A model generated the notes under the pieces. The model worked only from the letters and a program-made list of their open reading frames with translations, had not been told where the DNA came from and did no database searches. A stretch of 64,000 bases of DNA from Paraspadella gotoi (Eukaryota; Animalia; Chaetognatha). Positions 3,018-64,000 of the stretch are shown here, piece by piece (the stretch's first letter is position 1; each line of letters opens with the position of its first letter). The position numbers and the translations under genes are program-made. The DNA lies in NCBI GenBank assembly GCA_051294375.1, contig CM119270.1:7389143-7453142 (forward strand), given 5' to 3'.

Positions 3018-4662
3018 CAAGTAAATATAAATATAAATATAAGTATATAAACCCGACTCTTTTAACTCGTAGAGAATTCGTCAGCTACAACGCCGAGAAA
3101 GTTTGGATTGGAAAAGAAAATCTCCTGCACAGGTGAGCAGCAAACTGATGTGAAAGGTATTTGGATTTTTTACCGATTATAAGTGCAGAATTAAATTTTT
3201 AGATAATATTTATTAAATTTATGAAATTTGGTCAACCAATATAAAAATTATCCATTCATTTAATAAATAAGCTATCTTCCCCTGACTTTGGACAGGCTTG
3301 GTGGTTTAAGGCCTCCATCACTCTTACAGATAATGACATAGCAGGTCCCTGCAAGGCTTTCAATTAAGCCTCTCTCACAGTCTCGTTTATTCACTCCCAG
3401 AGTACCTGGCTTCCCTATCAATGAGTGAAAATATTTCAAAGAATGTTTCAATTGTATGAAAAGACCACTCCTTAAGTATTAGATTCGGGGAAATACTTAT
3501 TGTCTCCGCACTAGCATCAAAACAAGGAGCCTGAATTTTATGAAAATTGGTACAACCAATATAAAAATTATCCATTCATTTAATAATAAGCTATCTTGCC
3601 CCTGACTTTGGACAGGCTTTGGTGGTTTAAGCGCCTCATCACTTATTTCAGCGACGAATCCGATCACAAGAAAACACGTGGAAACTACGTGACGGTTCAC
3701 GTGAGATACAACTGCCAGCGCGGAATGCACGATCGATTACGGAGGACCAGTGAGTCTGGGCCTTGTTTGTTTATTTCTTTATTTTTTAATTTGTTTATTC
3801 ATTAATAAAATCGTCATTTGAACAGCCAAGGAGTCTCGGACGGCAAATCCCTCCTTTGCACATTCGACCAAATACCCGAAGGTGGTATTACGAATCGGCG
3901 AAGCTCATGATCGACGTCATCGGGGAACGATCTCAACGTCTCCTATCAAGGTCGGATCATCATCACAAGTCACTTCCATTAATTCGCTCAAGAAAATCAT
4001 TAATTTGTTTTCGCTTCTTTGTTGCATCGTTCCTCGAACTTAATCCAATCATTTTTGCCTTACCCTATCAGATTCCGAGTCACGCTTCGCCAACAAACTC
4101 ACGTGCGCGTTGTGTCCCGACTCAACCCCTCCGCCTCATACTCCAAGGTAGGGTTTTTTGGGGGGCCCAAATTCCTTCACTTTTTTCCCCATTTTGGTCT
4201 CAAAAAAATAAATCAAATCAATGTTCGTCGATTTATTCATTGATTCATTGATTATCATCATCTTTGTTTCAATAACTAATTGATTCATTGATTGATTGAT
4301 TTATTCATTCATCCAGGCGTTCGTCAAGCCCAGCACCCCGACATGCCCCGTTCTGGCAAACGAGTTTCGTTCTCGAGAAAAGAGACCAATCAGAATTCGA
4401 CGTCGAACCGCAGAATCAGCTGGCTCCGGTTTTGACTGGTCAGTTGGCATTTTAAAATCAATAAATTAATCAATTTTTTCAATTTATCATATATTAAAAA
4501 CATATTTTACTTTAATTACATGGAAAAATTGAAAATAGGAAGTCGATTGTAAAAAAAAACAACTGTCTGTTATTTCCTTGAGTCACTGATTAAATCAATT
4601 GATTTAAAAGTGATTTATTAAAAAAATAATTACGATAACATAAATAAATAAATAAATAAAAA

Positions 4663-4751: not shown

Positions 4752-7700
4752 AATAAAATAATAAATAAATAAATAAATCCATTAATCAATCAATCAGATC
4801 AATCAATACCTCTTCCTCCTTCGAAAAAAGCCGAACTTCACCTGGAACTCTTGGCTGAAATCCCCCGGAGGGATGATGATGATCATCGGCTTCTTCCCTC
4901 GGTCTTCGCTTTGCTCCTTTTGCTTTTTGTTCTCGTCAAACACGTTCGTCGTCGAGGAAGTCGTCGTCGACGACGCCGACGCGCGGTTCCGCCTCTTCCT
5001 CCTCCTTCCTCCTCCTCGCCGGGTTGCCGACCCCCGGGCGCCCGGAGCGGCGTCGACTCGACTCCTCCGCCTCCGCCTCCTCGTCGCGGCGCCCTTCATT
5101 CCTTGCCGGTGCAGCCGCACTCCTTGCCGTGCAGGCTCTCGGGCCGCCGTGCCGCCCAGGGGGAGGCTCGGAGTCTGTGAGCGTGAAAGGAAGGGGGCAG
5201 TGGGAGAGTGCGGTTTTTGTTATGCTTATATAATTGTATATATATAATATATAATTATAGTTATGAAAAATGGAAAGATGACTTGTTTACTATATATAAA
5301 CTTTTAAAAATTTTATATTCAATTTAAAAAATAAATGTAAAAATTTAATAAATTTCACTATATATAGATTTATTTGGTTTGGAATTCATAGTAAAATTCT
5401 TTATCGTTTAATGTCATTTTTTTACAAACTCCCCCGTCACACAGAGCCTCCACCCCCACCACCCCCACTTGGAACCCTTCCCTACCCTCCCCCACCCCTG
5501 CACGACCGCCCCACTGCGCCTCTCACTTCCTTCAGATCCTACTCGACGCAGCCTCCTCTCCTCAGAATCGGGTAAGTTCGGTTTTACAATGTTCTCTGGT
5601 GAACTGGGAAAATTATTCAATTTAACATTTTATCAACAACAATTTTTTCAAGAAAAAAAGGGGAAAAATACATGAATTATGAATTAAAGTAATAGGAATA
5701 TATCTAATTGAATTATATGATGACTATTGACTATCCTTCTCCAGGAATCGCCTCCTCCCGATCCGCCTCCCGCTCCGCCTCCCGCATAGACTCGGCTCAT
5801 CCCGCGACTCAATCACATCCGGGTCGCGACCTCGCTCTACCGGTTTCACTTCCGGGTTCGCCGACTCCGACGGACGAAACTCCAATGATATGTCCGAGAA
5901 ATTGCGATGGAAAGGCGCACGGATACAGGTCCTAGTTGTAAAGTTGTAAACAATAGTTACTAATTATTGCTAATAATTTTTTATTCGCTTATTAAACTTA
6001 TTCTTAATTTTATCAAACTTTGATGATTAGCTTTGTTTATTTGCCTCACGTTTTTTTTTCTTTCTTTTTAGATGTCGATCGAATTCTACTGTTTCGGGAA
6101 ACCGAACACATTATTACTTCAACGGAGACGTGAGAAACTTTAAAGGAATTGAATTTCCGCGGAAAAATCTCATCACCAAAGAAACGATTGGTGAGTGAAA
6201 CTGAAAGGATTTGTTCACGGGGGAATTGAGAAAAAAAAGAGCATAGCCGAGCTCCTACTTATCATTAGAGGTCGCTATGTATCAAAGTTTAGTGAAAATG
6301 AAACAAAAAACCTCTTTAACTCGAAATGAAAGTAAGTAATGAACGCGAGTAGGCGAACTGTATTTTTAAAAAAAAATAAGAAAAAAAAAAGATTATTTTT
6401 CAAGAAATTTTCATCGCTTACCTTACTCTATCAATCTCTCTTCACGATTCCCCCCTCGTTTTTTTCCAACCAATCAGGGCTCGGAGAATACGGCAAAGTC
6501 GTCAAGGGTCTGGCCTTTAATCTTGACGGTTCGGAGGAATGGCGACAAGTCGCCGTCAAGATGCTGAAGGAAGACGCGGACAAGAAAAACAAGGAAGCGC
6601 TGATGGTGGAGATGTCCATCATGCGCCTAGTCGATCCGCACAAGAACATCGTCAAGCTGCTGGGGTGCTGCATCGACCAGGTGATTGGGAAGAAGGTTGT
6701 TGGGAAATTCGTCTTGCGTCTGAGTAAAACAACAGCATACGGTTTAAGCATTCTGTTCTATAATATTTAATAGTTATAATTTAAGAATTGCGTCGATACT
6801 CTGACCGAGGTCATGACCACCAAAAAAATAAGGACTTCTGACCTGCAACCCCAGACCCATTTAATAAAAAAACAAACTGACCGTCCCCATAACAGGATCC
6901 TTATATGATGATTCTCGAATTCATGACGCAAGGAAATCTCCAGGATCATCTCCGGAAAGCCTCCGCCTCCACGCCCATTCCGGTCACCGCCAACGACTTG
7001 GTCAACTATGGATACCAAGGTGAGGGAACGGATCATTTCTTTTATAGAGAATGAGCTTATTTTCAGTTTAGACTAGAAAATACAAGCGAGAAGAGAACTT
7101 AGTAAAAACCTTTCTTTCTATTCAAACTCTCGCTCTATTGCTCTCTTCAATGAACTTCGGTGTCTATTTATTTCATTTTCCAATTTCATTTAGTCTTTGA
7201 TTAACTTTCCTTGAAGAGACAGTAATTTATTTTTATGTGATAAGTAGACAGAACCGTTTCAATATTAAGCAAGTCCACTGAGCTTCGGCATCAGGCTGTC
7301 AACACCATGTTGGACAGGCGGGTTAAGCGCCCCGTCGCGCTCTTAACTGCGCAGAACGACCACCGGGCCTTAGAGACCCCGGAGCCTTTTGGTGTTGGGT
7401 AGGGCGAATGACATTGCCTCCGTGCACCAATGGCCGCTGGATGAACGGTTGGTGGATTTTAGTCCACCATACCTTATACGATTAGGCCTTGCAGCAACTT
7501 AACTATCTCGTCCCCTTCTCGCCTTCCCTTCCCAGTGGCCTGCGGCATGCAGCACCTCTCCCTCGCCCACGTGATCCACCGTGACCTCGCGGCGCGCAAC
7601 ATCCTCCTCGGCGCGGACGGCGTCGTCCGCGTCGCCGACTTCGGCCTCGCGCGCGACGTCTTCGGATTTGGCTCCTACGAACAAAAGTCCGAAGTTCGGC

Positions 7701-7799
7701 TGCCGATCCGATGGATGGCGCCAGAGTTTCTGTTCAAGGTGAGCGGATGATCTTCTGTTTCTTTTGGGTATATTATTATTATTATTGTTTTATTAATTA

Positions 7800-7843
<44 letters not shown>

Positions 7844-7856
7844 TATTATTATATTA

Positions 7857-7898
<42 letters not shown>

Positions 7899-8546
7899 TT
7901 TATTATTATATTATTTAATGAAGTCAAACCTTTATAATTATCCCATCACAAATTCTTCCTTTCAACTCTATAATCCAGGGAACATCGTCGTCGGCGAGCG
8001 ACGTCTGGAGCTACGGGGTGCTCCTGTGGGAGATCGTAACTCTAGGAGCGACGCCCTATGGGCACATGAGGAGCGACGTGGTCATGAGATGGGTAAGAGA
8101 GAGAAAAAAGAGAGAGAAAGTTAATGTTGATATAATAATATATTTCTTTCAGGTCGAGCGGGAATAAAGTTAGAAAGCCTCAACATTGCGGCAGCGACTT
8201 TTACCGCGTCATGGACAGCTGCTGGTGGAAAAGGTAAGTTCTTCAAAAATCTACCCCAAAATAATAATTCGAAATTCGATTGTTTCCATTAATTCTTACT
8301 TGTCTTCAAACTTACCCTGACTCCTTACCTTCAGCCGAGAAGCGCCCGTCCTTCGAAGAGCTCATCGGCCGCCTCCTCGATTTTCTCGATCGCAACGAAG
8401 ATTCTCTCGTCGATCAAACTCAAAATGCTCTATCGAAAACCGCCCAACTGCCCACAAGTGCACCCCCGCCCTCTACGCCCAAGATTGTGACCTTAGTCCT
8501 CCCAAAAACTTTGCTAAGTTCAGAGTCGTCTGATTCTAACTACTGA
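2818..8546 (+). CDS. Receptor tyrosine kinase with Ig-like ectodomain, single TM and Ret/FGFR/Cad96Ca(Stitcher)-like kinase; 5' end not identified; contains apparent sequencing frameshifts
   Basis: Exon ~2818-2925 (FNCATRESNPKSDISW, Ig C..W motif); TM exon ~4830-5177; kinase exons ~6478-6680 (GLGEYGKV, VAVKMLKE, HKNIVKLLGCC), ~6896-7019 (DPYMMILEFMTQGNL), 7536-7738 (HRDLAARN, DFG, LPIRWMAPE), 7979-8092 (SDVWSYGVLLWEIVTLGATPY), ~8152-8233 (LEKPQHC) and 8335-~8546 (EKRPSFEEL). Confidence 0.9.
3221..3645 (+). mobile_element. ~420 bp dispersed element with ~105 bp direct repeats at both ends (~320 bp period), inserted in an RTK intron
   Basis: 'atgaaa(a)ttggtacaaccaatataaaaattatccattcatt...ggtggtttaag' occurs at ~3221 and ~3540. 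Absent at the equivalent site (~170) of the other copy. Related fragments at ~40886-41069 and ~62395-62625, weaker at ~49405-49465 (reverse) and ~53908-53960. Confidence 0.75.
7212..7476 (+). mobile_element. ~265 bp non-autonomous element in an RTK intron, ending in a short hairpin
   Basis: Absent from the homologous intron at ~16255. Its reverse complement matches ~60222-60350 and ~60880-60975. The 3' end has ggtgga-ttttag-tccacc followed by atac. Confidence 0.65.
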
Positions 8547-26362: not shown

Positions 26363-32061
<5,699 letters not shown>

Positions 32062-36524: not shown

Positions 36525-39500
36525 ATGCCCAAATTGAGGAAGAGGAAAACCCGGGAACGCCTCCGCGATCACGCGGACCTCAACATCTGCGGGAAGTTGA
36601 CGCCGAACGAGAAGATGCTTTTCGTGGAAGTCAGAGAGGGAGACACTGATCGGGCGATCGCGCTTTTGAAGAATCTCCAGGTCAGTTGGTTGGTGAAAGT
36701 AACAAGGTTAATAAAATGAACGAGAATTTACTTGAAAATATTCTTTTAAAAAAGTTATCTTGAGTTGCAGTGTGACCGCCTGTAACAGCCTATTTTTAAA
36801 TAGCAAACGGCCACATTATTAAGCTTAATCCGTTCGAACACTGCAGGAATAAAACTAATTGTACGTAAATCGGAGTACATCGCTCGTTTTATGTATGTCG
36901 GTAGTTTAACAATTAAAATGAAGCACACTTGTCTTTTTTACACAAGTCTCCGATAGATTTATTGTCTTTTTCCTTTTATTATTTTGTTAAATATGTTTAT
37001 TTATTTTATCTTTAACATTTTCTTGTTACTTACAGGAGAATTTAGACCTAGAAAAACGCGACTTCTACGGCCGAACGGTCCTCTCCTACGCAGTCATTCG
37101 CCAAAACGAAGAACTAGTGGATTTCATGACCGGAAGTCAATTTCCCGAAGAGCGCAAGCCCGTGTTTCTGGGCGATAGCCTCGCCTACGCCATCGAGGGG
37201 CGAAACTACAGCATCGCGGAAAAGCTGCTCACTTACGCCGAGGCCATGGACTGGCTGGAGCGTGACTACCAAGAGGCCGCCTTCAACAGCCACGTCTCGA
37301 CCAAAAAGTCCAAACAGAACTTCGAAAAGCGAGAGGCGACGTCCTGCTTCATCAGCACCGAATCCTTTGGCTTGGTTCAGCAAAATGTCAGCGTCAAGTT
37401 TACCGACGACGTTCTGCGGAATCCCATCATCAAGGCGAGCATCATTGATGATTATCCCATCATTCAGATGCTTTATGAAAAAGGGTTCCGGTACGTTGAA
37501 AGTTTAAAGTAACTAAAGAAATAAATGTAACCAAAAAATGGTGACAATTTTACCTAATTACTGTTTACTTTTTTTTTTTTTTGTTCAGAGTTGTCGTTGA
37601 TGGTCGCCCTGAAGACGAAAAGGCCATTGCCCGCTTAAATCGTTTCAAAGCCTATTGCAGCCCAGGTTATCTCAGTGTAAACGAATTGGACGCCATTGAG
37701 GTCTGTTTCAAGAAATCGGGCACCCTGGAATCTCTGGCTGAAAAAGATCCCGTTTACACTGTCGAATATGAGCAGTTGGCGGCACAGCTGCGCCACTATG
37801 CGGTCAACTTGTTAAACCAGTGTAGAGGGGACAAAGAAATCAAGCTGATTATGTCGAAATTTAATGAGAAATATGACGAAGAAAAAAAGACTGCCGATCC
37901 TGGGGTCTTCAGATTCCCCCGACTTGAAGAGGCTATCAAGTATGAGCAAAAAGAGTTCATAGCTCATCCTCACAGTCAAAAAGTCATCACAGAGATGTGG
38001 AGGACTCACGGCGGCACAGAAATGAGCTACATGAGACTTTTTCTAAATTTTATGCTGCAGATTCTTTTTGTTCCTTTGTCATCCATTTATCTCTTGTGCG
38101 TTGTTACTGATGATTGGTCTATCAGAAAAGTATATCCAAAAGAGAAACGAAAAGAGAATCTAAATGAAGTTGAGTCAAATACAACTGACAGTTCGCCTCC
38201 CAAAACAAGCCGTTGGGAGAAGTTTGAAAATATTTATCTGAAGAGTCCAATCTCCAGCTTTCTCCGATACTACGGAACGTATCTCATCTTTGTCATTCTG
38301 CTTGCTGTAGAGGTGCTTGAGCCAAATTTGACAAACGAGACAAGAAATTCATTGACTTATGGATGTAGCCTTGATGCTTTAGAGTACCTAATTATCATAT
38401 TTGTTGCAGGATACACGAAGCATATAATCACACTCATTTATCTTACCGGAGCTTCTTTTTTTACCAAATTTCAAAACATAACTTACCTTTTTTCGGTAGT
38501 TTTCTTTTTTCTCGCATATATTATTTGGGTTGTCGGATTTCTCATAACTTCAGCAACGTTTGCCTCTGACGGAGTTGATGTAAACTTGTGTCAGAAAAAT
38601 ACTATTCCTCGCTATCTTTACACCTCAAAACATACTTATGTTTTGGCCTCAGAAATCTGCTTCATGATTGCCGTTATTGGGTCATACCTGAAGGTTCTTG
38701 AAGTTTGTCACATTAATCGATATCTTGGTATTATGCAATACATTCTTTTCCAAACTTTTAAGGATGCAACATATATTTTATTCATGTTCCTACTTTTTAT
38801 CATTTGCTTCACTCTTGGACTTCAAATGATCTACTTCAATTACCAGAAAGATAACTGGAGAATAAAAATAAATGACCTGACCGGCCTCCCAGAATGTAAT
38901 AACATGCACGAAGAGTTCACTGATTTTCAAAAGACTCTAAAAACTCTATCTTGGGATCTTTTTGGTTATGGTCAAGCTTCATATGCAAACATTATGCAAC
39001 CCAACATTCGGGATACAAGTGGAAAACTTCTAGAGCCACAAAAGATGGACGAGATGCGATTGTTGTTATGCAATCCACAGTTAACTAAGATCGAGTGGCA
39101 TAAAATCTCAAAAGAAAATAACATAAGCATGACGTTCGAAAGTAATTTCGAATTGGCAACAGAGTTTTTTGGCTACCTCGTTGACTTTTTATATCACGGT
39201 ATTGTCATTATTCTCTTGCTAAATTTGCTCGTTGCCAAAATGAGTCAGACCTACGTAAACATTTTTAAAAATGCCGACAAAGAGTGGAAATTTCAGCGCA
39301 CGATTTACTTAGCCAGATTTATGGATTACTCTGAGTACGTGCCTCCACCATTCAACCTCCTTCCTCGTCTCCATTTACTACTCGAACTGGCGGGAAAATT
39401 TAAACATGTATTTAAGCATTTGACAAAGCGTCACTTAAAAACAGAAAAAAAGACGCCTATAAACCACGAATATCACGAATTTGAAGACATACTCCATCAC

Positions 39501-39653
39501 CGACTTATTCACAAACAGTTGGAAGAAAGGTCGGCAAATGCTGAAGTTCTCGAGCTTTCCAAGGAATTAGTGCAGGACACTAACGCTATGCTGTGCAAGA
39601 TCAAAGAGTTGAAGGATTTGACTTTATATTCCTCGCTGGATCTCGTTGATTAA
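36525..39653 (+). CDS. TRPC-like cation channel paralog 1 (~891 aa); exons 36525-36680, 37036-37490, 37589-39653
   Basis: Ankyrin-like repeats (DFYGRTVLSYAV; GDSLAYAIEGRN), TRPC linker (RLNRFKAYCSPGYLS; RLEEAIKYEQKEFIAHPHSQ), six hydrophobic segments, pore LSWDLFG, S6 LLNLLVAKMS, TRP box EWKFQR and PPPFNLLP. Confidence 0.93.
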
Positions 39654-40072
39654 AAAAAAAGAAAAACTTAAACTTTTGGTGGTTAAACATCAAAATATTC
39701 ATCAAGATGCTTTTTTCCCTAAATATTTCATTTAAATTATGTTTTTAGTATAATTTTTAATAATATGTCAAAAAGTAAACAATAAAATAAAATATATGTC
39801 ATACTATTTTGAAGCTATAACATGAATTAATATTGTCAAATTTCCCTGTTTTCAATTGATCCTTTGAACAAATACATAAACAGCTTGAACAGCTTAAACG
39901 TGCAACAAAGCAAAACACAAAGTTTTATTCGCTTCGGTCAATGTGTGCCAAATTTTTCAATTTTTTAAAACCTTTTGTCCCGGCTGGTGCTATTTGTGCG
40001 ATTTACAATATTTTTTTCTGCCATGTAAATTATTTGTCTACTTTTTTTTGCCCAAGTTTCTCATACATAAAG

Positions 40073-43000
40073 ATGACAAAACTGAAAAAAAGAAAAACGC
40101 GGGATAAAACCCGAGACCATGCTGACCTCAATCTCAGCGAAAAGTTGAGCTCAGCGGAGAAGATGTTGTTCGTGGAAGTGAGAGAAGGAGACACCGACAG
40201 GGCAATCGCACTTTTAAAGGATCTCAAGGTTAGTAAAAATTACTGAAAAAAAAAATGTACGTGTATGCAAAAAATAAACTAAATTTAAACCAAGTAATAT
40301 TACGTTTTTACTTTAGGAAAACTATGACCTGGAAAAGCGAGACTTCTACGGTCGGACGATCCTCTCCTACGCAGTCCTCCGCCAAAACGAGGAACTCATC
40401 GACTTTATGACCGGAAAAGAATTTCCCGAAGAACGGAAACCAGTCTACATCGGTGACAGCCTCGCCTACGCGATCGAGGGACGGAACTACAGCATTGCCG
40501 AGAAACTCGTTAAATATGCGGAGTCTATGGATTGGCTCGAGCATTCCGACAAGGAGACGGCTTTCAACAATAACGCCTCCTCCAAGTCCGTTAGCAAATC
40601 CAAGAAAAACCTTGAGAGAGTGGAGACAACGTATTGCTTCATGCGTCCGCAGTCGTTTGGGCTGATTCAGCATAACGTCAGCGTCAAGTTTACCGATGAT
40701 GTTCTGAGGAATCCTATTATTAAAGCCAGCATTATCGATGATTATCCTATCATTCAAATGCTGTATGAGAAGGATTTCAGGTAAATGTTGAGCCATTCGG
40801 TATTAGTTAATTGAATTAAAAAGTATATTATTTCATAGCGGTTTAGTCCATATTATTATTTTTTTTTTTTTTTTAAGAAATTGTTATGAAATTGGTACAA
40901 CCAATATAAAAATTATCTATTCATTTAATAAATAAGCTATCTTGCCCATGACATTGGACAGGCTTTGGTGGTTTAAGGCCTCCATCACTCTTACAAGATA
41001 ATTGCATAGCAGGTCCCTGCAAGCTTTCAATCAAGACTCTCTCACAGTCTCGTTTATTCACTCCCAGAGTTATTTTACCTTATAAAATTTCTTTTATTTT
41101 TATTTTTTGACAAGGGCATCGAGAACACTATTAAGATTAAGTAAAAATATTATTAAAATTGTTAAAATATAACTAAAATAAAAAAATGATTTTTGGCTTT
41201 AAGACCATAGTGTTTTATTTTAAATAATTCAGGGTAATTGTGGATGGTCAACCTCAAGATGAAAAGCCAATAGCTCGCCTCAACCGTTTTAAAGCATACT
41301 GCAGCCCTGGATACCTCAGCCTCAACGAATTGGACGCCATCGAAGTTTGCTTCAAAAACTCAGGTGTGTTAGAATCACTGGCAGAAAAGGATTCCGTCTA
41401 CACTGCCGACTATCAACAGTTAGCGAGCAAACTTCGAAACTACGCGGTGAACTTGCTCAATCAGTGCCGGGATGACAGGGAGATCAAAATGATCATGAGT
41501 AAGTTTAATGAAAAACAAGATGAAGAAAAAACAGCGGATCTCGGAGTTTATAAGTATCCCAGACTCGAGCAGGCCATCAAGTATGAGCAAAAAGAATTCA
41601 TCGCGCACCCGCATTGCCAAAAGGTGATAAATGAGATGTGGAGCAGCCTGGGTGACATCGGATACGGCTACAAGAGTCTCTTTTTCACTTTCGCGCTGCA
41701 AACGTTACTTGTTCCTTTTACCTCTATCTACCTGCTGTGCGTAGTCACCAAGCAATGGTCAATTAGAAAGGTGTATCCACAGGATGAACTCCGGAAATCC
41801 AAGAGTAACGGCACAGTCAACGAGATTGAATCCATGACCGAAGTCAGCGTTTCAATCAAAAAAAGTAAATGGGAAAAGTTTAAGGATCTTTATTTGAAAA
41901 GCCCGCTTTCCTGTTCTCTCAGATACTACGGAACGTACCTCATATACGTCTGTCTCTTAGCCGCCGAGGTCCTCAAACCAAACGTGACAAAAGTGAGAAG
42001 AAACATGTTGACTTATGGTTGCAGCTTGGATAAGCTGGAAGTCGTAATTTTGATATTCGTGATAGGGTACATGGAGCATGTGGCGTCGAGCATTTACGTC
42101 ACGGGAAAGAGGTTTTTCACCAAATTTCAAAACATCACCTACATGGTTTCCGTTTTTTGCGCTTTTCTTGCGTATGTGATCTGGGGAATCGGTTTCCTTC
42201 TCACCCGAAAATCTTTCGGCGAAGAAGACGTGGATGAAAATCTCTGCCAACAAAAGACCATTCCTCGCTATCGCTGGACCGCCAAACAGGATTACATTTT
42301 AGCATCGGAGATATGCTTCATGTTGGCTGTAATCGGTGCCTATCTCAAAGTACTGGAAGTATTCCAGATAAATCGTTACTTGGGCATCATGCAGTACATT
42401 CTGTTTCAAACATTCAGAGATGCCTTGTACATCTTGTTCATGTTCTTCCTGTTCATCATCTGCTTCACCCTGGGTCTCCAGATGATTTACTTCAACTACC
42501 AGAAGGACAACTGGCAAATCAAAATCGGTGACGTCTCTGGTCTTCCCGAATGTCAGAACATGCAAGAAGAGTTTTTCAGTTTCAAGAAGACAATCAAGAC
42601 TTTATCATGGGATCTTTTCGGCTACGGCGACACCTCCTATGCCCGAATCATGCAGCCAAACATAAGAGATATCAACAAGAAACTTCTTCCACCGGGCAAG
42701 ATGAACGAGGTGCGCCCGCTGCTCTGTAATCCTCAGTTGACCAGAAAAGATTGGGAAAACATTACGGCGACTTACAACCTGAGCACGGAATTCGAACCCA
42801 ACCTGGCCGACGCGACGGAGTTCTTTGGCTACACTGTAGACTTTGTCTACCACTGCATCGCCATCATCCTTCTCCTCAACCTACTCGTCGCGAAAATGAG
42901 TCAGACTTATTCGGAGATCTTCGACAACGCGGACAAAGAGTGGAAGTTTCAGCGGACCATCTACTTGACCAGATTCATGGACTATTCCGAATACATTCCG

Positions 43001-43321
43001 CCGCCTTTCAACATCATCCCACGACTTCATTTTTTCGTGGAATTCGTCGAGAGCATCATTTTCAAGTGCTCCGAATTGACCAACCGCAGCGGAGGCTCTG
43101 ACCTAGACAATGGGCCCACTGCTCCCGTCAACCAAGAGTATTACGACTTTGAGGACATGCTGCATCACCGCCTGCTGCACAAGCAACTGGAGGAGAGATC
43201 AGAGAGCGCGGAGGTGCTTGACCTCTCCAAGGAGTTGGTACAAGATACAAACTCGATGCTGACGAAGATTAAGGAGTTGAAAGATGTGACGGATGGATGC
43301 TCCGAAGATCTGGTCGACTGA
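40073..43321 (+). CDS. TRPC-like cation channel paralog 2 (~902 aa); exons 40073-40228, 40317-40780, 41233-43321
   Basis: Same motifs and intron positions as paralog 1. Many synonymous and amino-acid differences with intact frames indicate a real paralog. Confidence 0.93.
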
Positions 43322-46923: not shown

Positions 46924-52307
<5,384 letters not shown>

Positions 52308-53327
52308 GGAATTAAATGTTGTTCATGCGATTGTTTTATATTCATTAAAATTTTGTGCTGATTAGTTTTTTAACTTTATTTTCTTGCGAGAATGGAGAGA
52401 AAAAAAAATGATGATGACCATATCAAGTCTTATTTTAAACGTTTTTGCAGTCAAGTTTTTCTTTAGTACAATTACTTGCTTAATTAAGATAATCTTTAAA
52501 CATTTGAAAGATGACTATGAACGTAAAAGAGGAAAATTCACAGCATAATTCTATATTACTATATGCTATGTTTAATGAGCAATATTCTAAATACAACTCA
52601 CTGAAGTAGGTACAACGAATATGAAAATTATTCGTTCATTTTTTGCAAGCTATTTTAGGTTTACGTCTTTTGTTATTTTCTTCAGTTTACTTCGCATTCA
52701 TATCGAGAGAAGGCGCTTAAACCGCGAGAGTGAGAAAACAAAAGATATTTTTACCTAAATTTTACCTTTCTACTTCTATAATATCGTCACAATCCCTCAC
52801 CTTTTTTCCTACCTTTATTTTCGTCTTCTACACGGTTAAAATAAATGAAAATATTTTGTAAGCATGTACAAGGGAACTACATTATTTACAAGTATGAACA
52901 TAATCTTCATTTACTAAACTCTTTCTCTTGAGAGCTGTTAGAAAAAAAGAAGAAAATAAAAACCATTCGGTTGATTTACTTTCGACTAAATATTTTATTT
53001 TATACTGTAACATTTTATATTTTATATAATATATTTACATTCAATTTAAGTAACAATTTTACGTATTTTAAATGTAAATCCTCACGCACGACAATTTGAA
53101 ATTTGTAGGCACGCACGCCACTTTTTAGCTGTATTTTATATTTCTTTCTCCTTCTCTTTTTTAAACAGGTTTGTCTGGTTTAGACGGTTTTAAATTTTAA
53201 ATAATCCCCCCCAGAAAAACCCCGAATTCCCAAACCGATCGATCTAACCTTTATTTATTTTCAAAGCTGTTACTCAACATTAATGCACGTCCTTCTTCTA
53301 TCACCTTCTCTCGAAGCCACGCCCACA

Positions 53328-56643
<3,316 letters not shown>

Positions 56644-56737
56644 TCCGTTCCTTTAGAACATTCGGCTTACAAAATTCCTAAAATTTTAAAAAACCTCGGA
56701 GCATCAGTTGTTAAAAAGTAAAAAAACTCCCAGATTA

Positions 56738-57959: not shown

Positions 57960-58180
57960 GTGGGACGGACAGTCAAACAGACAGAGAGACAGACAGACGG
58001 ATGGACGGACGGACGGACATAATTTTTTTTGTATAAGTTTTTTTTTTGCATAATAATTCGATGTTCTGACATGATATAAGTGAATGCCCGACAAGATTTG
58101 TGGGGGAGACCGACGGACCGACAAAGTGAATTATAGAGTCGGAGACTCGGAATCTGCTATAAGCAGATCCGACTAAAAAC
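57960..58180 (-). mobile_element. DINE-1/Helentron-associated-like non-autonomous element fragment
   Basis: Minus strand reads TTTTTAGTCGGA-hairpin(tctgcttatagcaga)-TCCGACT-CTATA...GTCGGTCCGTCGGTC, followed by (CCGT/CTGT)n. Similar CCGT-tract fragments at ~57170-57305 and ~59000-59290. Confidence 0.5.
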
Positions 58181-58828
58181 TCTGGAAAAACTTCATCAAT
58201 TAGTCAACAAATTAAAGTTATGATTGAGTTGCGTGAAAAAATTCTTGGAAGGAAGAATCCGGTTTTGAGATTCGTTTAATCGTATATCTTACGTCAAACC
58301 TTCGGGTTTTCCACCGCCATTTACGACGAAGTAAATTTAAATGTTCTATTTTAGTATTTACTAAAGCAAGATCCAAATTCTTAGCATTCAAGATTTGTCT
58401 AGATTTGTACCAAATGATAACTACCGTCTTGTTAACCAATTATTCTCTAGTCTTGTTGTCTCATTATTCATGTATTTCTAACTATTTCTAACAAAATGCA
58501 ATCTCGTATAATTCGTTTTAATAATTTGTTTGATGACATTATTGATCGTATTTCATTTAATCATATTCAAACCAATATATCTCCGATAGAACTCCTACTG
58601 GGTTGGGAAATACTAGGAAAGGAGCGAATCTGTGTTCAGTTCAGTTCACTGTTCACAGTCAATTGGAGAGATTTCATGAAGTTTGTTCAACCGACTGTAG
58701 TTAGAAGTGCGATGCACTTTTGTTTCAAAGTCTATTAAAATTTGTAAATATTCTAGAGAAAATGGTAGCTTTAAAAGGCCCTAAGGTGCCTAAAGCCGCG
58801 AGTAATTAATATTGTCTATTGTCTATTG

Positions 58829-58969
<141 letters not shown>

Positions 58970-60221
58970 CATCCCTCTCCAAAAAAAAACAAACTATTGC
59001 GTCCACACTATGTTCGTCCGTCCGTCCGTCGGTCTGTCTGTCTATCCGTCAGTCTGTCTGTCCGTCCCCCTTCAATCAATCAATCAATCAATCAAGTCAA
59101 TCAATTAATCGTTATCGGCATTATTGTCGTCGTCGCTTTTGTCGTGGTCAGTGACGAATAGGCCTAAAACAAACATGGCGGATCAAATTGATTAATTAAT
59201 TAATTAATTAATTAATTGACTCATTAATTAACTTGAAATTAATTAATTAATGATTAACTAATGATCGTGGGCAGATCCGGCATTGTTTGCTCAAACTTGT
59301 GATTGCAATTAGCCAGAGTACCTTTTATCAATGTAACTCAAATGAGTTTACATAAAGAACTCTGTTTAAGTAAGTCTCGAAGGAACCTAGCATTTCATAG
59401 TATGAAAAAATTGATACAGCCGGAAAACAATACTATTACTTCCTTTTCTTTATTAATTTTTGTAGCATTTTGGGTATCGAAAGCCAAAAACTTTTTATTT
59501 TTTTATTTATCAATAATTGTAAGAAAAATGTCAAGCTGCAAAGTTTCAAAGTTTCTATATCTATTTTCGGTTTTAATCTAAATGTGACTGTTCTCAAGTA
59601 ATAAAGGCCCAAAGTTGTTCCCAAAATAGCTGTAAAGACTAAGAACTATACTGTACTAAGAAAACGGCGGTAATTTTATTTTTATGGGTCTTTTTTTTCA
59701 TCCTCAATATTCAACGAATAAATCTTTAAATAATCATTGACCTCATTTAAACGCTAATAAAACAAAATTGAAAAAAAGACTCGCTTTTCTAAGTAATAAG
59801 TAAGTTGGGAGGAAGTAAAATTATTCCTGCGACTATCGCAACTTTGCTTAGCTTGGAAGCAAATCCAGTATGTCGCTTTGTTACGTCCGTTCTCTCTACG
59901 TGGGTTAAGCTCGTGCACTCGTCCGATATTGAATACAGTTTTGCTCCTTCACAGAATCTAGAACATCTCACCAGGTTCTTTAAGAGAGTCATAAGAGATG
60001 AGGTTATTGTTAGAAAGGTCGGAATAGGATTAGGAGGAAAGTTTTTAAAGAGGCATTTAATATTACTATTAATAAAAAAGAGAAATAGGCACACGATACT
60101 AATAACTTATTTGCATCACGTGCAACGAGCATATTTTTTTGGTTTTATAATGTTTTTCTATTTCATATGTATATTATTAAAGAGTGTACATTAAATATTT
60201 GTAAATTTTTGAATAATATGT

Positions 60222-60975
60222 AGTATGGTGGACTAAAATCCAGCAATCGTTCGTCGGCGGCCATAGGTGCAGGAGGCAAGTCATTCGCCTCCCAACCCAA
60301 ACATCGGGGGTTCTTGCTCGGTGGTCGCCTAACAGTTAAGAGTGACGGGCTTGTTAATTAGCTGTAGCCGACCAAATTCAAATTTTAATGAGAACAGCAC
60401 GAAACAAATCTATTATTGGTATTAGTCATTGTGTTAAAATATTTTTTTTGCAAAAATGTTCCGAACCATGAGTAATTCGCTCATTAAAATTATTATATTG
60501 CTATATAATGTCAAAATTTTTTTTGGATATTTTAAGTTTATTTAATTTATTCTGATAGAGCTTAAAAAGTTAAGCAAAAAATGTAATTATAACTTTTGAA
60601 AATTTTGATGTTTTATTACTAAAAATTAGTAAAAACTGCTAAAATCATCGGAGATGATGATGATGATCACATCAAAATATTGAAAAAATAATAATAATTT
60701 GTGTAGACAACTTTTCATAAGCTATCTGAATCTGCTTTTAAAAAAAATTACTAGTGCTTCTAGCTATTTTGGAAAATTTTGGTCCATTGAAAGTTTTCTC
60801 AGAAATGTATAAAGTTTCATTCGGGAAGGTTCCCAAATCAAACTTCTGACCCACCCCATAGACATAGATTGGCCCTATCTTAACCCGCCTGTAACACGGT
60901 GTTACAGCCTCATCCGAAGCTCAGGGACTGCTTATTTTGAACTCTGTTACTCACTCATAATTATTACTTACTGTA
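60222..60975 (-). mobile_element. Longer reverse-orientation relative of the 7212-7476 element, with ~530 bp extra internal sequence
   Basis: 60222-60350 and 60880-60975 are reverse-complement matches to the right and left halves of 7212-7476. Confidence 0.6.
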
Positions 60976-61681
60976 GAGATAAAAAAAAACTTCGTCTCAG
61001 GTCGCTGAGGGTTTTTTACCACCCTTCGGTCCTCTCTGTGACTCAGAATTCTAAGAATCTAAGAATTCTAAGATTGCGATGATATTTTTAGTCCTTCAAA
61101 CTTAGTTCTCCGCATCGATCGTTCGATCGGACGAGCTTCGCCCTTTTCTATTCTATTACGCATTTCGAGAGAGAAAGTATAAAAGGTAGGACAACGAGGT
61201 TAAAAAGAAAAGATCGTGCCTCTCCGTTTAAATTATTCTTGTAGTTTTTCTCGCTTTTTGAAAATAGATTTAAAGACGAAATTAAATGAAAAAAAAATTA
61301 ATTAGGAAATTGTTATATAAAAAATAATTTAAAAATTAAAAATATTAATTAAATATATTAGAATAAGGAGAAAAATTAAATTAATAAAATATTAAAAGAG
61401 CTATTAAGTCTGAATAGATAGTAGATCTTCACACTTTCTATATCCTAGTTCTAAGAAAAATGAAATGAGAATTAGAGTTTTTATTACTCCTTAATAATGA
61501 TTTCATTTTAAAATAAAAATGTAATGTGATTATCGAATAAGCTTGCAATTGTGAATGTATTTTTGAACTTTTAATAGTAATGTCTGAATAAAATCAATTG
61601 GCGGTAAAGTTAATTTCACGGAATCAGACAACTCATAAGCAGTATAATTTTCTCCGTTGTGTTTATATCGATTGGGCGGAA

Positions 61682-63257
61682 ATGGATACTGGGCAAAATA
61701 TGGAAAGTAAGTTTCAGAATGAGATGATTAATGAAAATACGATGCAGTGGAAGTAAAACTTTATGATGATTACACTAGAAAGAAAATAAAAACGGCCATA
61801 TTTTGATATTTTGTTCATTAAACAATAAACAAAGAACTTTTTAAAAATCCCGCAGGGGGGACCACGACGCCTCCGAGACAGAGCCCCCTCGCGTTCATCC
61901 TCGTACGCAGACCCTCAATCTTTCTCATCTTCTTCGGCATCATCTTCATCATCCTTCAAATCATCATCACCATTGTGTACTATTCCAGCAACGATCTTCT
62001 CATCTACTCCTTGTTCTCTGGCTTCTGGGGCGGATTTTTTTTTATCATCACCGGAATTTTCGGCATCTTTGCCAACAAAAAAAATGACCTCTGTCTGGTG
62101 AGATTTCTTTTCCTTAATTCTTTTAACAGCTCCGTTAACACATTGTATAATATTTATATTTATATTAGTTGTACCATTTTCATTTATTAATAATTTTTGC
62201 TTATAATGAAAAATTTAAATAAATACTACAGGTGATGGCAAAAAGAACAAGAGAGAAATAATGAGAGAGAGAAAAATACTCTAGATACTTACTACGTTGT
62301 TATGTACCGTAGGAGAGGCATAAATAGAGAAAAGTTTTGGATCTCTTTTCTTAATCCCTATACCTACTTTTAACCTTAATATTTAACCCTGTTCTGGTTT
62401 AAGGCCTCACACATACAAGATAATAACAAAGCAGTTCCTTGAAATCATTAAATCAAGACTCTCCCAGTTACGCTTATTTACTTCCAGAGTACCTGGCTTC
62501 CCTATCAAGGAAGTGGTATAAAGTTTCAAAGAATGTTTCAATTGTATAAAGGAACCACTTCCTTAAGTATTAGAAAGGGTAATACTGTATTGTACTCTAT
62601 ACTAGCATCAAAATACAAGGAGCTAATCCTAATTACTAACCTCATCCATAACAACTCACCTAATTCTCAACCCTTTTGAGCAATTTCTAATGCTATTTTT
62701 GAACCTTATCCCGACCTATATCCTTTAGCCCTAACCTAATCACCAACTTCTAACCGATAAGTTTTGGCGGAATACGCCCCAAATTTTTGTAGTGTATATT
62801 CTTGAATTTCTTTCTTTTTTTTTTTGCAGTTGTTTTTGTTCTTCATAACTACTTTGGCTTCTGCAGTATTATCCTTAGGGGCTATAATATTTATAGGAGG
62901 TAAACGATTTCATTTTTTAAAAAAATAACAGTTTCGTTAAATGCCTATTTTAAGAAATAATCTTTTTAATATTTAGTCCCGAGCGTCACTACCGTAAAAA
63001 GAGTCCACGATGCCTTTGGAGGAATTTACCTTGCCAACGCCATACTGAGCCTCCTTTCTTCTTTTTGGGGATTCCTTGCCTCCTTTGTCTCCTGTTTCCG
63101 GCAATGCTGCGGCAATTGCTGCAGAGACTGCTATGAAGAATGCTGCGGCGATTGCTTCGACGATTGTATTTGTTGTGGTTGCAAGTGTACCACAGTCTCG
63201 GATGAAAGTGAGATACAGGAAAGGCCACCGACGATTGCGCAAATCGAAACACCTGTG
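61682..63257 (+). CDS. MS4A/CD20-like four-TM module with a Cys-rich tail (206 aa); exons 61682-61706, 61856-62097, 62830-62899, 62977-63257 (stop at 63344 if the last donor is not used)
   Basis: TM2 motif SGFWGGFFFIITGIFGIFANKKNDLCL matches the CD20/MS4A pattern. Four hydrophobic segments, consistent phases, and post-TM4 SCFRQCCGNCC. Confidence 0.82.
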
Positions 63258-63502
63258 GTAAATTTCTCTTTGAATTCAAAAAACTCTTTAAAATTTATAA
63301 AAATCAACATGATCTTAAATCTTAATATTCGCTCTAAAATTTAACGTTTTTATCAATAAGAGTAAGCTTTTGTTCTGAATATACTAAATTCATTTGTGCT
63401 AAAACATATTAAAATTAAAATAATTAAATATTTATTAATGCGTATATTCGTACGTAACTTTCACTAAGCTCTAATGTATATATATATATATTTTTTTTTT
63501 AG

Positions 63503-64000
63503 CATGTGATGACCAAACTGGAACAAAGAAAATTACAACAAAAAGTTTCTGGACCTGCAGATCTTGTTTTAAGTGAAAACTTAACAGCGCCGGAAAAGAT
63601 GGTTTTTGCAGAAATTAGAAAGGGTGATAATGACGCAACAATTTCACTCTTAAAAAATCCAAATGTAAGTATAAATTTAATATTTTTAAATGTCTTGTTT
63701 TAATTAATTGTCACTTTTAAAAGCGACTAAATTTTTTTTCACATTCATGGATAAATATTATCACATTAAAACAATTTAAGGTCGAGGTTGACCTGAATAA
63801 ACGCGACTTTTACGGACGAACCATCCTTTCTTACGCCGTTCTTCGCAATAATGAGGAACTCATTGATTTTATGACGGGAAATGAATTTCCTGCACATAGA
63901 AAACCAGTTTATATCGGAGACTGTCTCGCCTACGCAATTGAAGACCGAAATTACAGCATTGCCGAAAAAATCCTTAACTACGCCGAGTACATGGGATGGT
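63503..64000 (+). CDS. TRPC-like channel paralog 3, N-terminal part (exons 63503-63664, 63781->64000); truncated by the window end and probably continuous with the MS4A-like module
   Basis: ADLVLSENLTAPEKMVFAEIRKGD and DLNKRDFYGRTILSYAVLRNNEELIDFMTG...GDCLAYAIEDRNYSIAEK align with paralogs 1 and 2 and share the same intron position. Confidence 0.88.

What the first reader, a model, noticed from the sequence alone, without database searches (positions are those of the whole stretch)
61682..64000. Putative MS4A/CD20 tetraspan - TRPC channel chimeric gene
Seen: the last MS4A-like exon has no stop before 'ACA CCT GTG|GTAAAT' (63257/8, phase 0), where the sequence abruptly becomes AT-rich. After 245 bp a strong acceptor 'tttttttttttag|CAT GTG ATG ACC AAA' (63502/3) continues in the same frame into TRP paralog 3, giving ...AQIETPV-HVMTKLEQRK.... 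Known: MS4A proteins have both termini cytoplasmic, TRPC ankyrin N-termini are cytoplasmic, and some MS4As act as chemosensors or Ca2+-entry modulators. Inference: a topologically coherent ~10-TM subunit with a built-in sensor or auxiliary module tethered to a TRP pore. I do not know this architecture from described TRP families.
Basis: partly seen in the sequence, partly recalled or inferred. Interest (0 to 1): 0.95.

Follow-up and report, generated by a model that had tools for sequence, protein, structure and literature searches.

The report
Tetraspan fused to TRPC channel
In an animal genome, a spliced RNA contig joins a CD20-like four-helix membrane gene in frame to a TRPC-type ion channel gene, which would likely give a ten-helix channel subunit carrying its own predicted accessory module, a layout my searches did not find elsewhere.

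Summary
The fusion is real at the RNA level. One public run holds a 3,558-nt spliced contig that lies on 62975-63257, 63506-63664 and 63781-64000. Three letters separate the first two pieces, as a 63257^63503 splice predicts. The upstream module is CD20-like (Pfam E 5.5e-6; FcεRIβ E 1.3e-4; four hydrophobic segments). The downstream gene is an old paralog of two TRPC-like channels in the window, under purifying selection, and the contig's length fits a complete channel.

Limits: the support is one run. The start exon and everything past 64000 were not seen letter by letter. TRP3 keeps its own Met, and paralog TRP1 has the same acceptor six bases before its Met, so the acceptor predates the fusion. 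Minor separate or trans-spliced products cannot be excluded. None of 152 TRP relatives carries such a module, but the closest two lack the N-terminus. The module is MS4A-like, not a shown MS4A member.

Best reading (0.7): a translated ~1,100-residue, ten-helix TRPC subunit with a tethered accessory tetraspan, likely tuning targeting or gating. Direct chemosensing is possible but untested.

The parts
61682..61706 (+). Predicted first coding exon (start ATG, 8 codons plus one base, GTAAGT donor, phase 1)
   Evidence: Sequence only. It is the nearest candidate with a full GTAAGT donor among 7 phase-1 candidates in 58000-61800.
61856..62097 (+). CD20-like exon, hydrophobic segments 1 and 2
   Evidence: Pfam CD20 E 5.5e-6, 26.9 bits against cut-off 27.9; FcεRI beta E 1.3e-4. 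Presence in the RNA contig is inferred from the 309 letters before 62975.
62830..62899 (+). Exon with hydrophobic segment 3
   Evidence: The loose end of record 1 equals this exon's last 30 bases; hydropathy; no Pfam match.
62977..63257 (+). Exon with hydrophobic segment 4, cysteine cluster and acidic linker, ending at the fusion donor
   Evidence: Covered by record 1 with no differences; GC 0.50; no Pfam or Atlas match.
63093..63191 (+). Cysteine cluster, 14 Cys in 33 residues right after segment 4; predicted membrane anchor (palmitoylation) or metal site
   Evidence: Count; role inferred, untested.
63258..63502 (+). Fusion intron, 245 nt, GT..AG, phase 0
   Evidence: Record 1 joins across it. 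GC 0.19; the same donor hexamer starts TRP2 intron 2 in my gene model.
63258..63344 (+). Alternative read-through tail to a stop (rival product)
   Evidence: Open frame but intron-like GC 0.18; the contig joins across it.
63361..63378 (+). Possible five-codon alternative last exon behind an AG at 63360 (rival product)
   Evidence: Sequence only. The only cover is a 21-letter minus-strand piece of another record.
63503..63664 (+). First TRP3 exon, 162 nt as in TRP1; ancestral start Met at 63509; an out-of-frame ATG-TGA at 63504
   Evidence: Record 1 covers 63506-63664; alignment with TRP1 and TRP2; ATG list.
63665..63780 (+). TRP3 intron, 116 nt
   Evidence: Listed joint, GT..AG, depth 76.
63781..64000 (+). 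Second TRP3 exon (ankyrin repeats), runs off the window
   Evidence: Ank_2 E 9.5e-4, below cut-off. Covered by record 1, which continues 2,584 nt further.
36525..39653 (+). TRP1, unfused comparator paralog, 891 aa, 3 coding exons
   Evidence: Open model; no CD20-like sequence elsewhere in the window by tblastn.
40073..43321 (+). TRP2, unfused comparator paralog, 902 aa; only 419 nt behind TRP1, too little room for the 618-nt module
   Evidence: TRPC fold.

Best explanation
A spliced RNA contig joins CD20-like exons in frame to a TRPC-like channel paralog, and this message is likely translated into one protein of about 1,100 residues with ten predicted membrane helices, whose four extra helices would likely act as a tethered accessory subunit that tunes the channel's targeting or gating. 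Origin (inferred): the ancestral channel gene had an acceptor a few bases before its start codon, and a duplicate came to lie 245 nt behind a tetraspan gene whose last donor now uses that acceptor. Working (inferred): the module enters the membrane with both ends inside and the cysteine cluster likely anchors the tail to the inner leaflet. A tether of about 52 residues then reaches the ankyrin repeats, so each channel tetramer would carry up to four modules, fewer if it co-assembles with TRP1 or TRP2. Given that the protein is made, my odds for its role are: accessory for trafficking, clustering or gating 0.55, direct ligand sensor 0.25, passenger 0.2.
For: Shown: one contig carries both genes in consecutive record positions, 283 letters before and 379 after the join, with a 3-letter gap that keeps the frame and no other letters. 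It is spliced at a listed GT..AG intron and its loose end equals exon 3, so it is RNA-derived. Logan contigs are paths of 31-mers seen at least twice, so junction-spanning words were in the reads. Both copies of the short TGTG repeat at the ends are retained, which argues against a template switch there. 2,584 nt remain after 64000 against 2,300-2,333 needed for a paralog-length ORF. Exons 2-4 are open over 197 codons; 1 of 20,000 base shuffles was. TRP3 differs from TRP1 and TRP2 at 0.79 and 0.69 of synonymous sites but 0.23 and 0.19 of non-synonymous sites. The read-through tail looks intronic, and a start-stop ATG-TGA overlaps TRP3's own Met context, which TRP1 and TRP2 lack (weak). There are four hydrophobic peaks, no more. 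The tether can span the ~80 A cytoplasmic domain of TRPC4 (PMC5951680; my arithmetic). Precedent: MS4A12 acts through a complex with Orai1 (PMC8112172).
Against: There is one run and one study, marked RNA only by guess, and only as contigs. The tool warns that a contig across two genes shows no single transcript, and the joint row was not listed. The start exon is not shown in RNA; by length the contig starts about one base into exon 2, and exons 2-4 hold no in-frame ATG but six out-of-frame ones. TRP3 keeps its Met and an acceptor shared with unfused TRP1. There is no evidence of conservation: 0 of 152 relatives have two or more hydrophobic windows before the channel, and the two closest lack the N-terminus. 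The second half of the module matches no family, and loop 3 has two K/R although it should be outside. The channel sequence past 64000 was not read. No protein or functional data exist.
Confidence: 0.7

Rival explanations
1. Two genes share one transcription unit (operon-like or read-through). Some messages give a stand-alone tetraspan and a stand-alone TRP3, leader-spliced at 63503, and the cis-spliced fusion is one product among them, perhaps of little consequence.
For: TRP3 has its own Met and a family-type acceptor. A second acceptor at 63360 and three ATTAAA at 63408-63423 could end a tetraspan message. TRP1 and TRP2 are also only 419 nt apart. The assembler simplifies the graph and reports only contigs over 150 bp, so short or rare branches and a short leader would be invisible.
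Against: The contig runs unbroken through both 63257 and 63503 at mean depth 76. A long, abundant competing branch should break it (inference from how such graphs work; the thresholds are recalled). There is no AATAAA in 63250-63510, while TRP1 and TRP2 each have one downstream. 245 nt is tight for a last exon plus a promoter, exon and intron (the shortest intron modelled here is 77 nt). Whether this animal trans-splices was not tested.
Confidence: 0.18
2. The fused message is real but the module is not part of the working channel: translation starts at TRP3's own Met, or the linker is cut, so the tetraspan exons act as a borrowed promoter and leader or as a separate piece.
For: The Met at 63509 is kept with a purine at -3. 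There is no in-frame ATG in exons 2-4, and the start exon was not seen in RNA.
Against: The three exons keep an open, in-phase, CD20-like frame. Out-of-frame ATGs would hamper scanning to 63509. A well-formed start exon lies 149 nt upstream of exon 2.
Confidence: 0.08
3. Artefact or dead end: a mis-assembled or template-switched contig, or a TRP3 broken beyond the window.
For: The evidence is a single contig, and the joint row was dropped at a repeat. The first 21 kb of the window show 89-95% duplicated blocks beside N gaps, so the assembly is rough. The downstream ORF was not read.
Against: The join falls at canonical GT..AG ends predicted beforehand from DNA and keeps the frame. There is no N gap after 23063. 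RNA and DNA agree letter for letter over 662 nt. TRP3's first 125 codons are under purifying selection and the contig length fits a whole ORF.
Confidence: 0.04

Closest known systems
Canonical TRP channels (TRPC4/5; invertebrate TRPC-like proteins such as Owenia CAH1777258 and scorpion sTRP1)
   Same: The paralogs match TRPC4/5 best by profile (E 6e-47) and by fold (TRPC5 E 1e-22, TM 0.62), with ankyrin, TRP_2, six-helix core, TRP box and PPPFN motif. The nearest named proteins in a tree are TRPC-like (weak support 0.82-0.85, long branch).
   Different: Only about 20-29% identical to named TRPCs. The TRP box reads EWKFQR, the pore helix LSW rather than LFW, and the paralogs have no Cys/His cluster in TRP_2. 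TRP3 gains four predicted helices at its N-terminus, seen in none of 152 relatives.
MS4A / CD20-like tetraspans (Pfam PF04103; CD20, FcεRI beta, MS4A12)
   Same: The first two helices match CD20 and FcεRI beta; there are four hydrophobic segments with short loops. MS4A genes are known to fuse in tandem with each other (PMC2826416). MS4A1 responses need outside calcium (PMC11026480) and MS4A12 works with Orai1 (PMC8112172).
   Different: PMC2826416 limits true MS4A to jawed vertebrates and treats invertebrate look-alikes as doubtful. The score is just under Pfam's cut-off on one exon, and helices 3-4 are unmatched. It has a 14-Cys cluster and is joined to a channel rather than free.
TRPM6/7 channel-kinases and TRPM2 with NUDT9-like domain
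   Same: TRP channels that gained a module; the TRPM6/7 kinase is proposed to come from fusion with a neighbouring duplicated gene (PMC13143021).
   Different: Those are soluble C-terminal enzymes on TRPM; here a membrane module is added at the N-terminus of a TRPC.
Polycystin-1 (11 helices, last six TRP-like) and tetraspan accessory subunits such as TARPs and LHFPL5 (recalled, not tested here)
   Same: Extra membrane helices in front of a TRP-like core; four-helix proteins that regulate channels.
   Different: Polycystin-1's extra part is unrelated to CD20 and sits on a TRPP core. TARPs and LHFPL5 are claudin-like and separate polypeptides.

Membership tests
TRPC channels | N-terminal ankyrin repeats (four in TRPC4) | tested here: inconclusive
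   Ank_2 E about 1e-3 in TRP3 exon 2 and both paralogs, below cut-off. Ankyrin-like, but the number of repeats was not established.
TRPC channels | Six-helix channel core with TRPC fold | tested here: met
   On paralog TRP2, not TRP3: Ion_trans E 5e-9, model pLDDT 84.6, best folds TRPC5/TRPC4. TRP1 did not reach Ion_trans.
TRPC channels | TRP box EWKFAR and proline motif after S6 | tested here: met
   EWKFQR (one change) and PPPFN in TRP1 and TRP2; the corresponding TRP3 part lies outside the window.
TRPC channels | TRP_2 domain and LFW pore motif | tested here: inconclusive
   TRP_2 E 2e-4, below cut-off, Cys/His part missing; LSW for LFW, in the paralogs.
TRPC channels | Intact channel ORF in TRP3 itself | tested here: inconclusive
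   Only the first 125 codons are in the window; the contig's length fits a whole ORF but its letters past 64000 were not shown.
TRPC channels | Cation current, tetramer, PLC-linked gating | not testable with these tools
   Needs expression and recording.
MS4A / CD20-like (PF04103) | Profile match to CD20 family | tested here: inconclusive
   Exon 2 alone: E 5.5e-6, 26.9 bits against 27.9, profile 7-59 of 156. Exons 3 and 4 alone: none. The whole module was not scanned. Atlas hits at 0.88-0.89 to clusters with 14-16% CD20 members are leads only.
MS4A / CD20-like (PF04103) | Four membrane helices, both ends inside | tested here: met
   Peaks at residues 30-48, 61-79, 87-105 and 135-153 on two recalled hydropathy scales. 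K/R counts 4, 0, 2, 2, 3 favour N-in, with loop 3 equivocal. Prediction only.
MS4A (strict) | Orthology with the jawed-vertebrate MS4A clade | not tested
   No relatives of the module were retrieved for a tree; PMC2826416 found no clear invertebrate MS4A. Not filed as a member.
MS4A / CD20-like (PF04103) | CD20 fold | tested here: inconclusive
   An 80-residue single-sequence model gave a helical hairpin with no fold match at E 0.001; too small to tell.

The most novel reading that the evidence does not exclude
This is a natural receptor-channel: a CD20-like chemosensing tetraspan covalently tied to a TRPC pore that it gates. It would be genetic evidence that MS4A-type proteins signal by coupling to TRP channels, and mixing with unfused paralogs would give channels with zero to four sensor modules.
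Probability: 0.18. Interest if true: 0.92.

Novelty: new variant of a known kind. Interest (0 to 1): 0.76.

Why it matters
TRPC channels have a stable layout, and I found no TRP with a CD20-like module in 152 relatives or in the paper searches named. A natural fusion suggests that the two kinds of protein can work together in one membrane complex. It also offers a clean experiment: the same channel with and without its module, beside two unfused paralogs from the same genome. That bears on how MS4A-type tetraspans cause calcium entry, where at least one member is reported to depend on a separate channel (PMC8112172). The locus also shows a simple route to new architectures: an acceptor just before a start codon lets an upstream gene capture a whole channel. 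The fusion may be confined to one lineage, which limits its reach.

Tried and rejected
No whole genome is held for this window, so the sequence past 64000 and other copies of either module could not be searched. The run search listed no holder on record as RNA; its one row is a guess. The word share 0.35 fits exons plus TRP3 (0.36) but also a long read-through form (0.29-0.32), so it was not decisive. Lack of contig cover at 63264-63335 is used only because a contig joins across it. Record 2 (18-21 letter pieces on opposite strands) was rejected as chance. Searches for longer proteins like exon 2 gave 0 of 467 candidates, and like TRP2's ankyrin exon 1 ankyrin protein of 208; both are weak negatives. 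Two metagenome scans found no relative. The Atlas gave no usable hit for exon 4. The fold search of the 80-residue hairpin was uninformative. Rfam found nothing in the window. Three look-ups of earlier findings were empty. No complex prediction was run, because TRP3's membrane part and the whole module were not available as single stretches. I rejected the strong acceptor as proof of fusion, since TRP1 shares it. I rejected a hidden module for TRP1 or TRP2: tblastn finds only low-complexity matches elsewhere, and TRP2 has no room. I did not establish the taxon beyond 'animal, likely invertebrate', so trans-splicing remains open.

Full report
Setting. The window is eukaryotic, with AT-rich introns, and encodes a receptor-kinase-like gene, zinc fingers, an amidase and TRPC-like channels. 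It is an animal, likely an invertebrate by its nearest named relatives. No whole genome is held. There is no N gap after 23063.

Observation. Four exons (61682-61706, 61856-62097, 62830-62899, 62977-63257) give 206 codons without a stop, and a phase-0 intron of 245 nt leads in frame into 63503-63664 and 63781-64000. GC drops from 0.50 to 0.18 exactly at the donor; introns modelled in the window lie at 0.18-0.32. The donor hexamer GTAAAT also starts TRP2's second intron in my model. Of 20,000 base shuffles of exons 2-4, 1 stayed free of stops; this control does not allow for my choice of exon ends. Two other endings are possible from DNA alone: read-through to the stop at 63344, or an acceptor at 63360 giving five more codons.

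RNA evidence. The run search gave one run, X1, contigs only, RNA by guess, holding 0.35 of the words. Laid on 62940-64000, 2 records fitted. Record 1 (3,558 nt, depth 76) lies on 62975-63257 at record 310-592, on 63506-63664 at 596-754 and on 63781-64000 at 755-974, with no other letters or gaps. Three letters lie between the first two pieces, the number needed for 63503-63505, which fall in a repeat the tool skipped. The tool dropped one joint row at repeats, so this join is read from the pieces and not from the joints table. The 63665-63780 intron is listed as a GT..AG joint and the loose end before 62975 equals the end of exon 3, so the record is spliced RNA. Logan contigs are built from 31-mers seen at least twice, with graph simplification, and only contigs over 150 bp are reported (Logan preprint 10.1101/2024.07.30.605881, passages). 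The junction words were therefore in the reads. That the fused path is the main continuation of exon 4 is my inference from the unbroken contig; rare or short alternatives would be lost, and a contig is not a single molecule. After 64000 the record has 2,584 nt left, against 2,300-2,333 needed for a paralog-length ORF. Before 62975 it has 309 letters, which would start it about one base into exon 2, so the start exon is not shown.

The channel half. TRP1 (36525-39653, 891 aa) and TRP2 (40073-43321, 902 aa) are open paralogs. TRP3's Met at 63509 aligns with their start Met. TRP1 has an acceptor 6 nt before its Met and a first exon of the same 162 nt; TRP2 has an AG directly before its Met and another 16 nt earlier. 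The acceptor is therefore a family trait and not proof of fusion, but it explains how the fusion could arise. Over 125 codons TRP3 is 77 and 85 residues identical to TRP1 and TRP2, with synonymous differences near saturation (0.79, 0.69) and non-synonymous ones at 0.23 and 0.19: an old paralog under selection. Its first 16 residues are the least conserved (5 and 7 of 16, against 11 of 16 between TRP1 and TRP2). A profile of the paralogs matches TRPC4/5 best (E 6e-47), and a model of TRP2's large exon (pLDDT 84.6) matches TRPC5 and TRPC4 folds. The family is divergent: EWKFQR box, LSW pore helix, no Cys/His cluster in TRP_2. A tree of 61 sequences (TRP1, TRP2 and 59 of the first 60 hits; P0009 left out as short, later hits not used; midpoint root) puts the paralogs with P0001 and P0004 (support 1.0) on a long branch. 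They lie next to an Owenia protein and chelicerate TRPC-like proteins, including the cluster of scorpion sTRP1, with weak support. sTRP1 is a reported chemosensor (PMC9170154, passages); the link is loose.

The tetraspan half. Exon 2 matches Pfam CD20 (E 5.5e-6, one bit under the cut-off) and FcεRI beta (E 1.3e-4). Atlas neighbours are CD20-, FAM70- and MLC1-type clusters at 0.90 or below (leads). Exons 3 and 4 match nothing alone. Hydropathy gives four peaks (residues 30-48, 61-79, 87-105, 135-153), then 14 Cys in 33 residues and an acidic linker. An even count keeps the ankyrin repeats inside. About 52 residues lie between the cluster and where I place the first ankyrin helix, enough for the ~80 A depth of the TRPC4 cytoplasmic domain (PMC5951680, passages). 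Exons 2-4 have no in-frame ATG and six out-of-frame ones, so translation of the module rests on the predicted first exon. PMC2826416 (passages) restricts true MS4A to jawed vertebrates, so I call the module CD20/MS4A-like.

Is the layout known? A full-library profile search returned 1,794 proteins at E 0.001, of which the best 150 were listed. With two I examined 152. None had two or more hydrophobic windows before the channel, 7 had one weak window, and the module matched none (best E 1). Only 56 of 152 align from within TRP2's first 40 residues, and the closest relatives P0004 and P0001 start at about TRP2 residues 44 and 289, so they cannot tell. Thirteen relatives picked for long extensions or inserts had no CD20 match. 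Paper searches (listings and abstract starts) showed no such fusion; 'CD20 domain' with 'transient receptor potential', and PF04103 with TRP, gave 0 papers. The held half of a TRP review (PMC12799467), a choanoflagellate TRP preprint and a TRPM evolution paper had no occurrence of MS4A, CD20 or tetraspan in term searches. The library lacks most subscription papers, and I read no supplements, where genome-paper domain tables might list it.

How it likely works. Shown: the spliced in-frame join in one RNA contig; a CD20-like first half; TRPC-like paralogs. Inferred: translation from 61682, a complete channel, ten helices, and a module held beside the pore by a tether and a likely lipid-anchored cysteine cluster. 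I commit to a tethered accessory subunit that changes targeting, clustering or gating. The precedent is MS4A12 acting through Orai1 (PMC8112172, abstract and passages). The bolder reading, a built-in chemosensor, rests on MS4A1 responding to odorants with calcium entry from outside (PMC11026480, passages); in that paper MS4A1 neurons did not express Trpc2, so it gives no direct MS4A-TRPC link. Rivals: a two-gene unit with the fusion as one product (0.18), an untranslated or cleaved module (0.08), an artefact or broken channel (0.04).

Verdict. It is a new architecture of a known channel kind, so far in one organism and one run, with function untested. Interest 0.76.

Noticed in passing
window 36525-43321: Tandem TRPC-like genes TRP1 and TRP2, 419 nt apart, about 70% identical in the large exon but saturated at synonymous sites. 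They form a very divergent clade whose only close relatives found are two fragments (P0001, P0004; about 40-45% identity). The TRP_2 Cys/His cluster is missing.
   Followed up: partly
window 36519, 40073, 63503: All three TRP paralogs have an AG in phase 0 within 6 nt before the start Met, so TRP1 or TRP2 might also receive upstream coding exons or a spliced leader; not tested with RNA.
   Followed up: partly
window 63504-63509: A start-stop ATG-TGA sits directly behind the acceptor and overlaps the context of TRP3's own Met; absent in TRP1 and TRP2.
   Followed up: partly
window 61856: By length the RNA contig starts about one base into exon 2, at an exon border, which may mark alternative first exons or retention of intron 1.
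   Followed up: no
window 1-21500: Blocks of 1-2.5 kb repeated at 89-95% identity beside N gaps, including three copies of the end of a tyrosine-kinase-like gene, some with many indels; likely uncorrected long-read gap filling rather than true duplication.
   Followed up: partly
window 6336-8546: Exons with protein-kinase motifs (HRDLAARN, DFG) of a receptor-tyrosine-kinase-like gene; label from recall of the motifs, not scanned.
   Followed up: no
window 26950-32061: Gene with two USHBP1 PDZ-binding domain matches, MCC/USHBP1-like, with a 618-codon acidic open frame without Pfam match.
   Followed up: partly
window 49580-52307: C2H2 zinc-finger gene in several exons.
   Followed up: partly
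window 53280-56690, minus strand: Amidase-family gene (Pfam Amidase E 6e-19 on one exon), head to head with the CD20-like gene about 5 kb away.
   Followed up: partly
window 3219-3403, 40884-41070 and about 62390-62620: A dispersed repeat of about 190-250 nt occurs in introns of TRP2 and, by eye, of the CD20-like gene; the first two copies are 93% alike.
   Followed up: no
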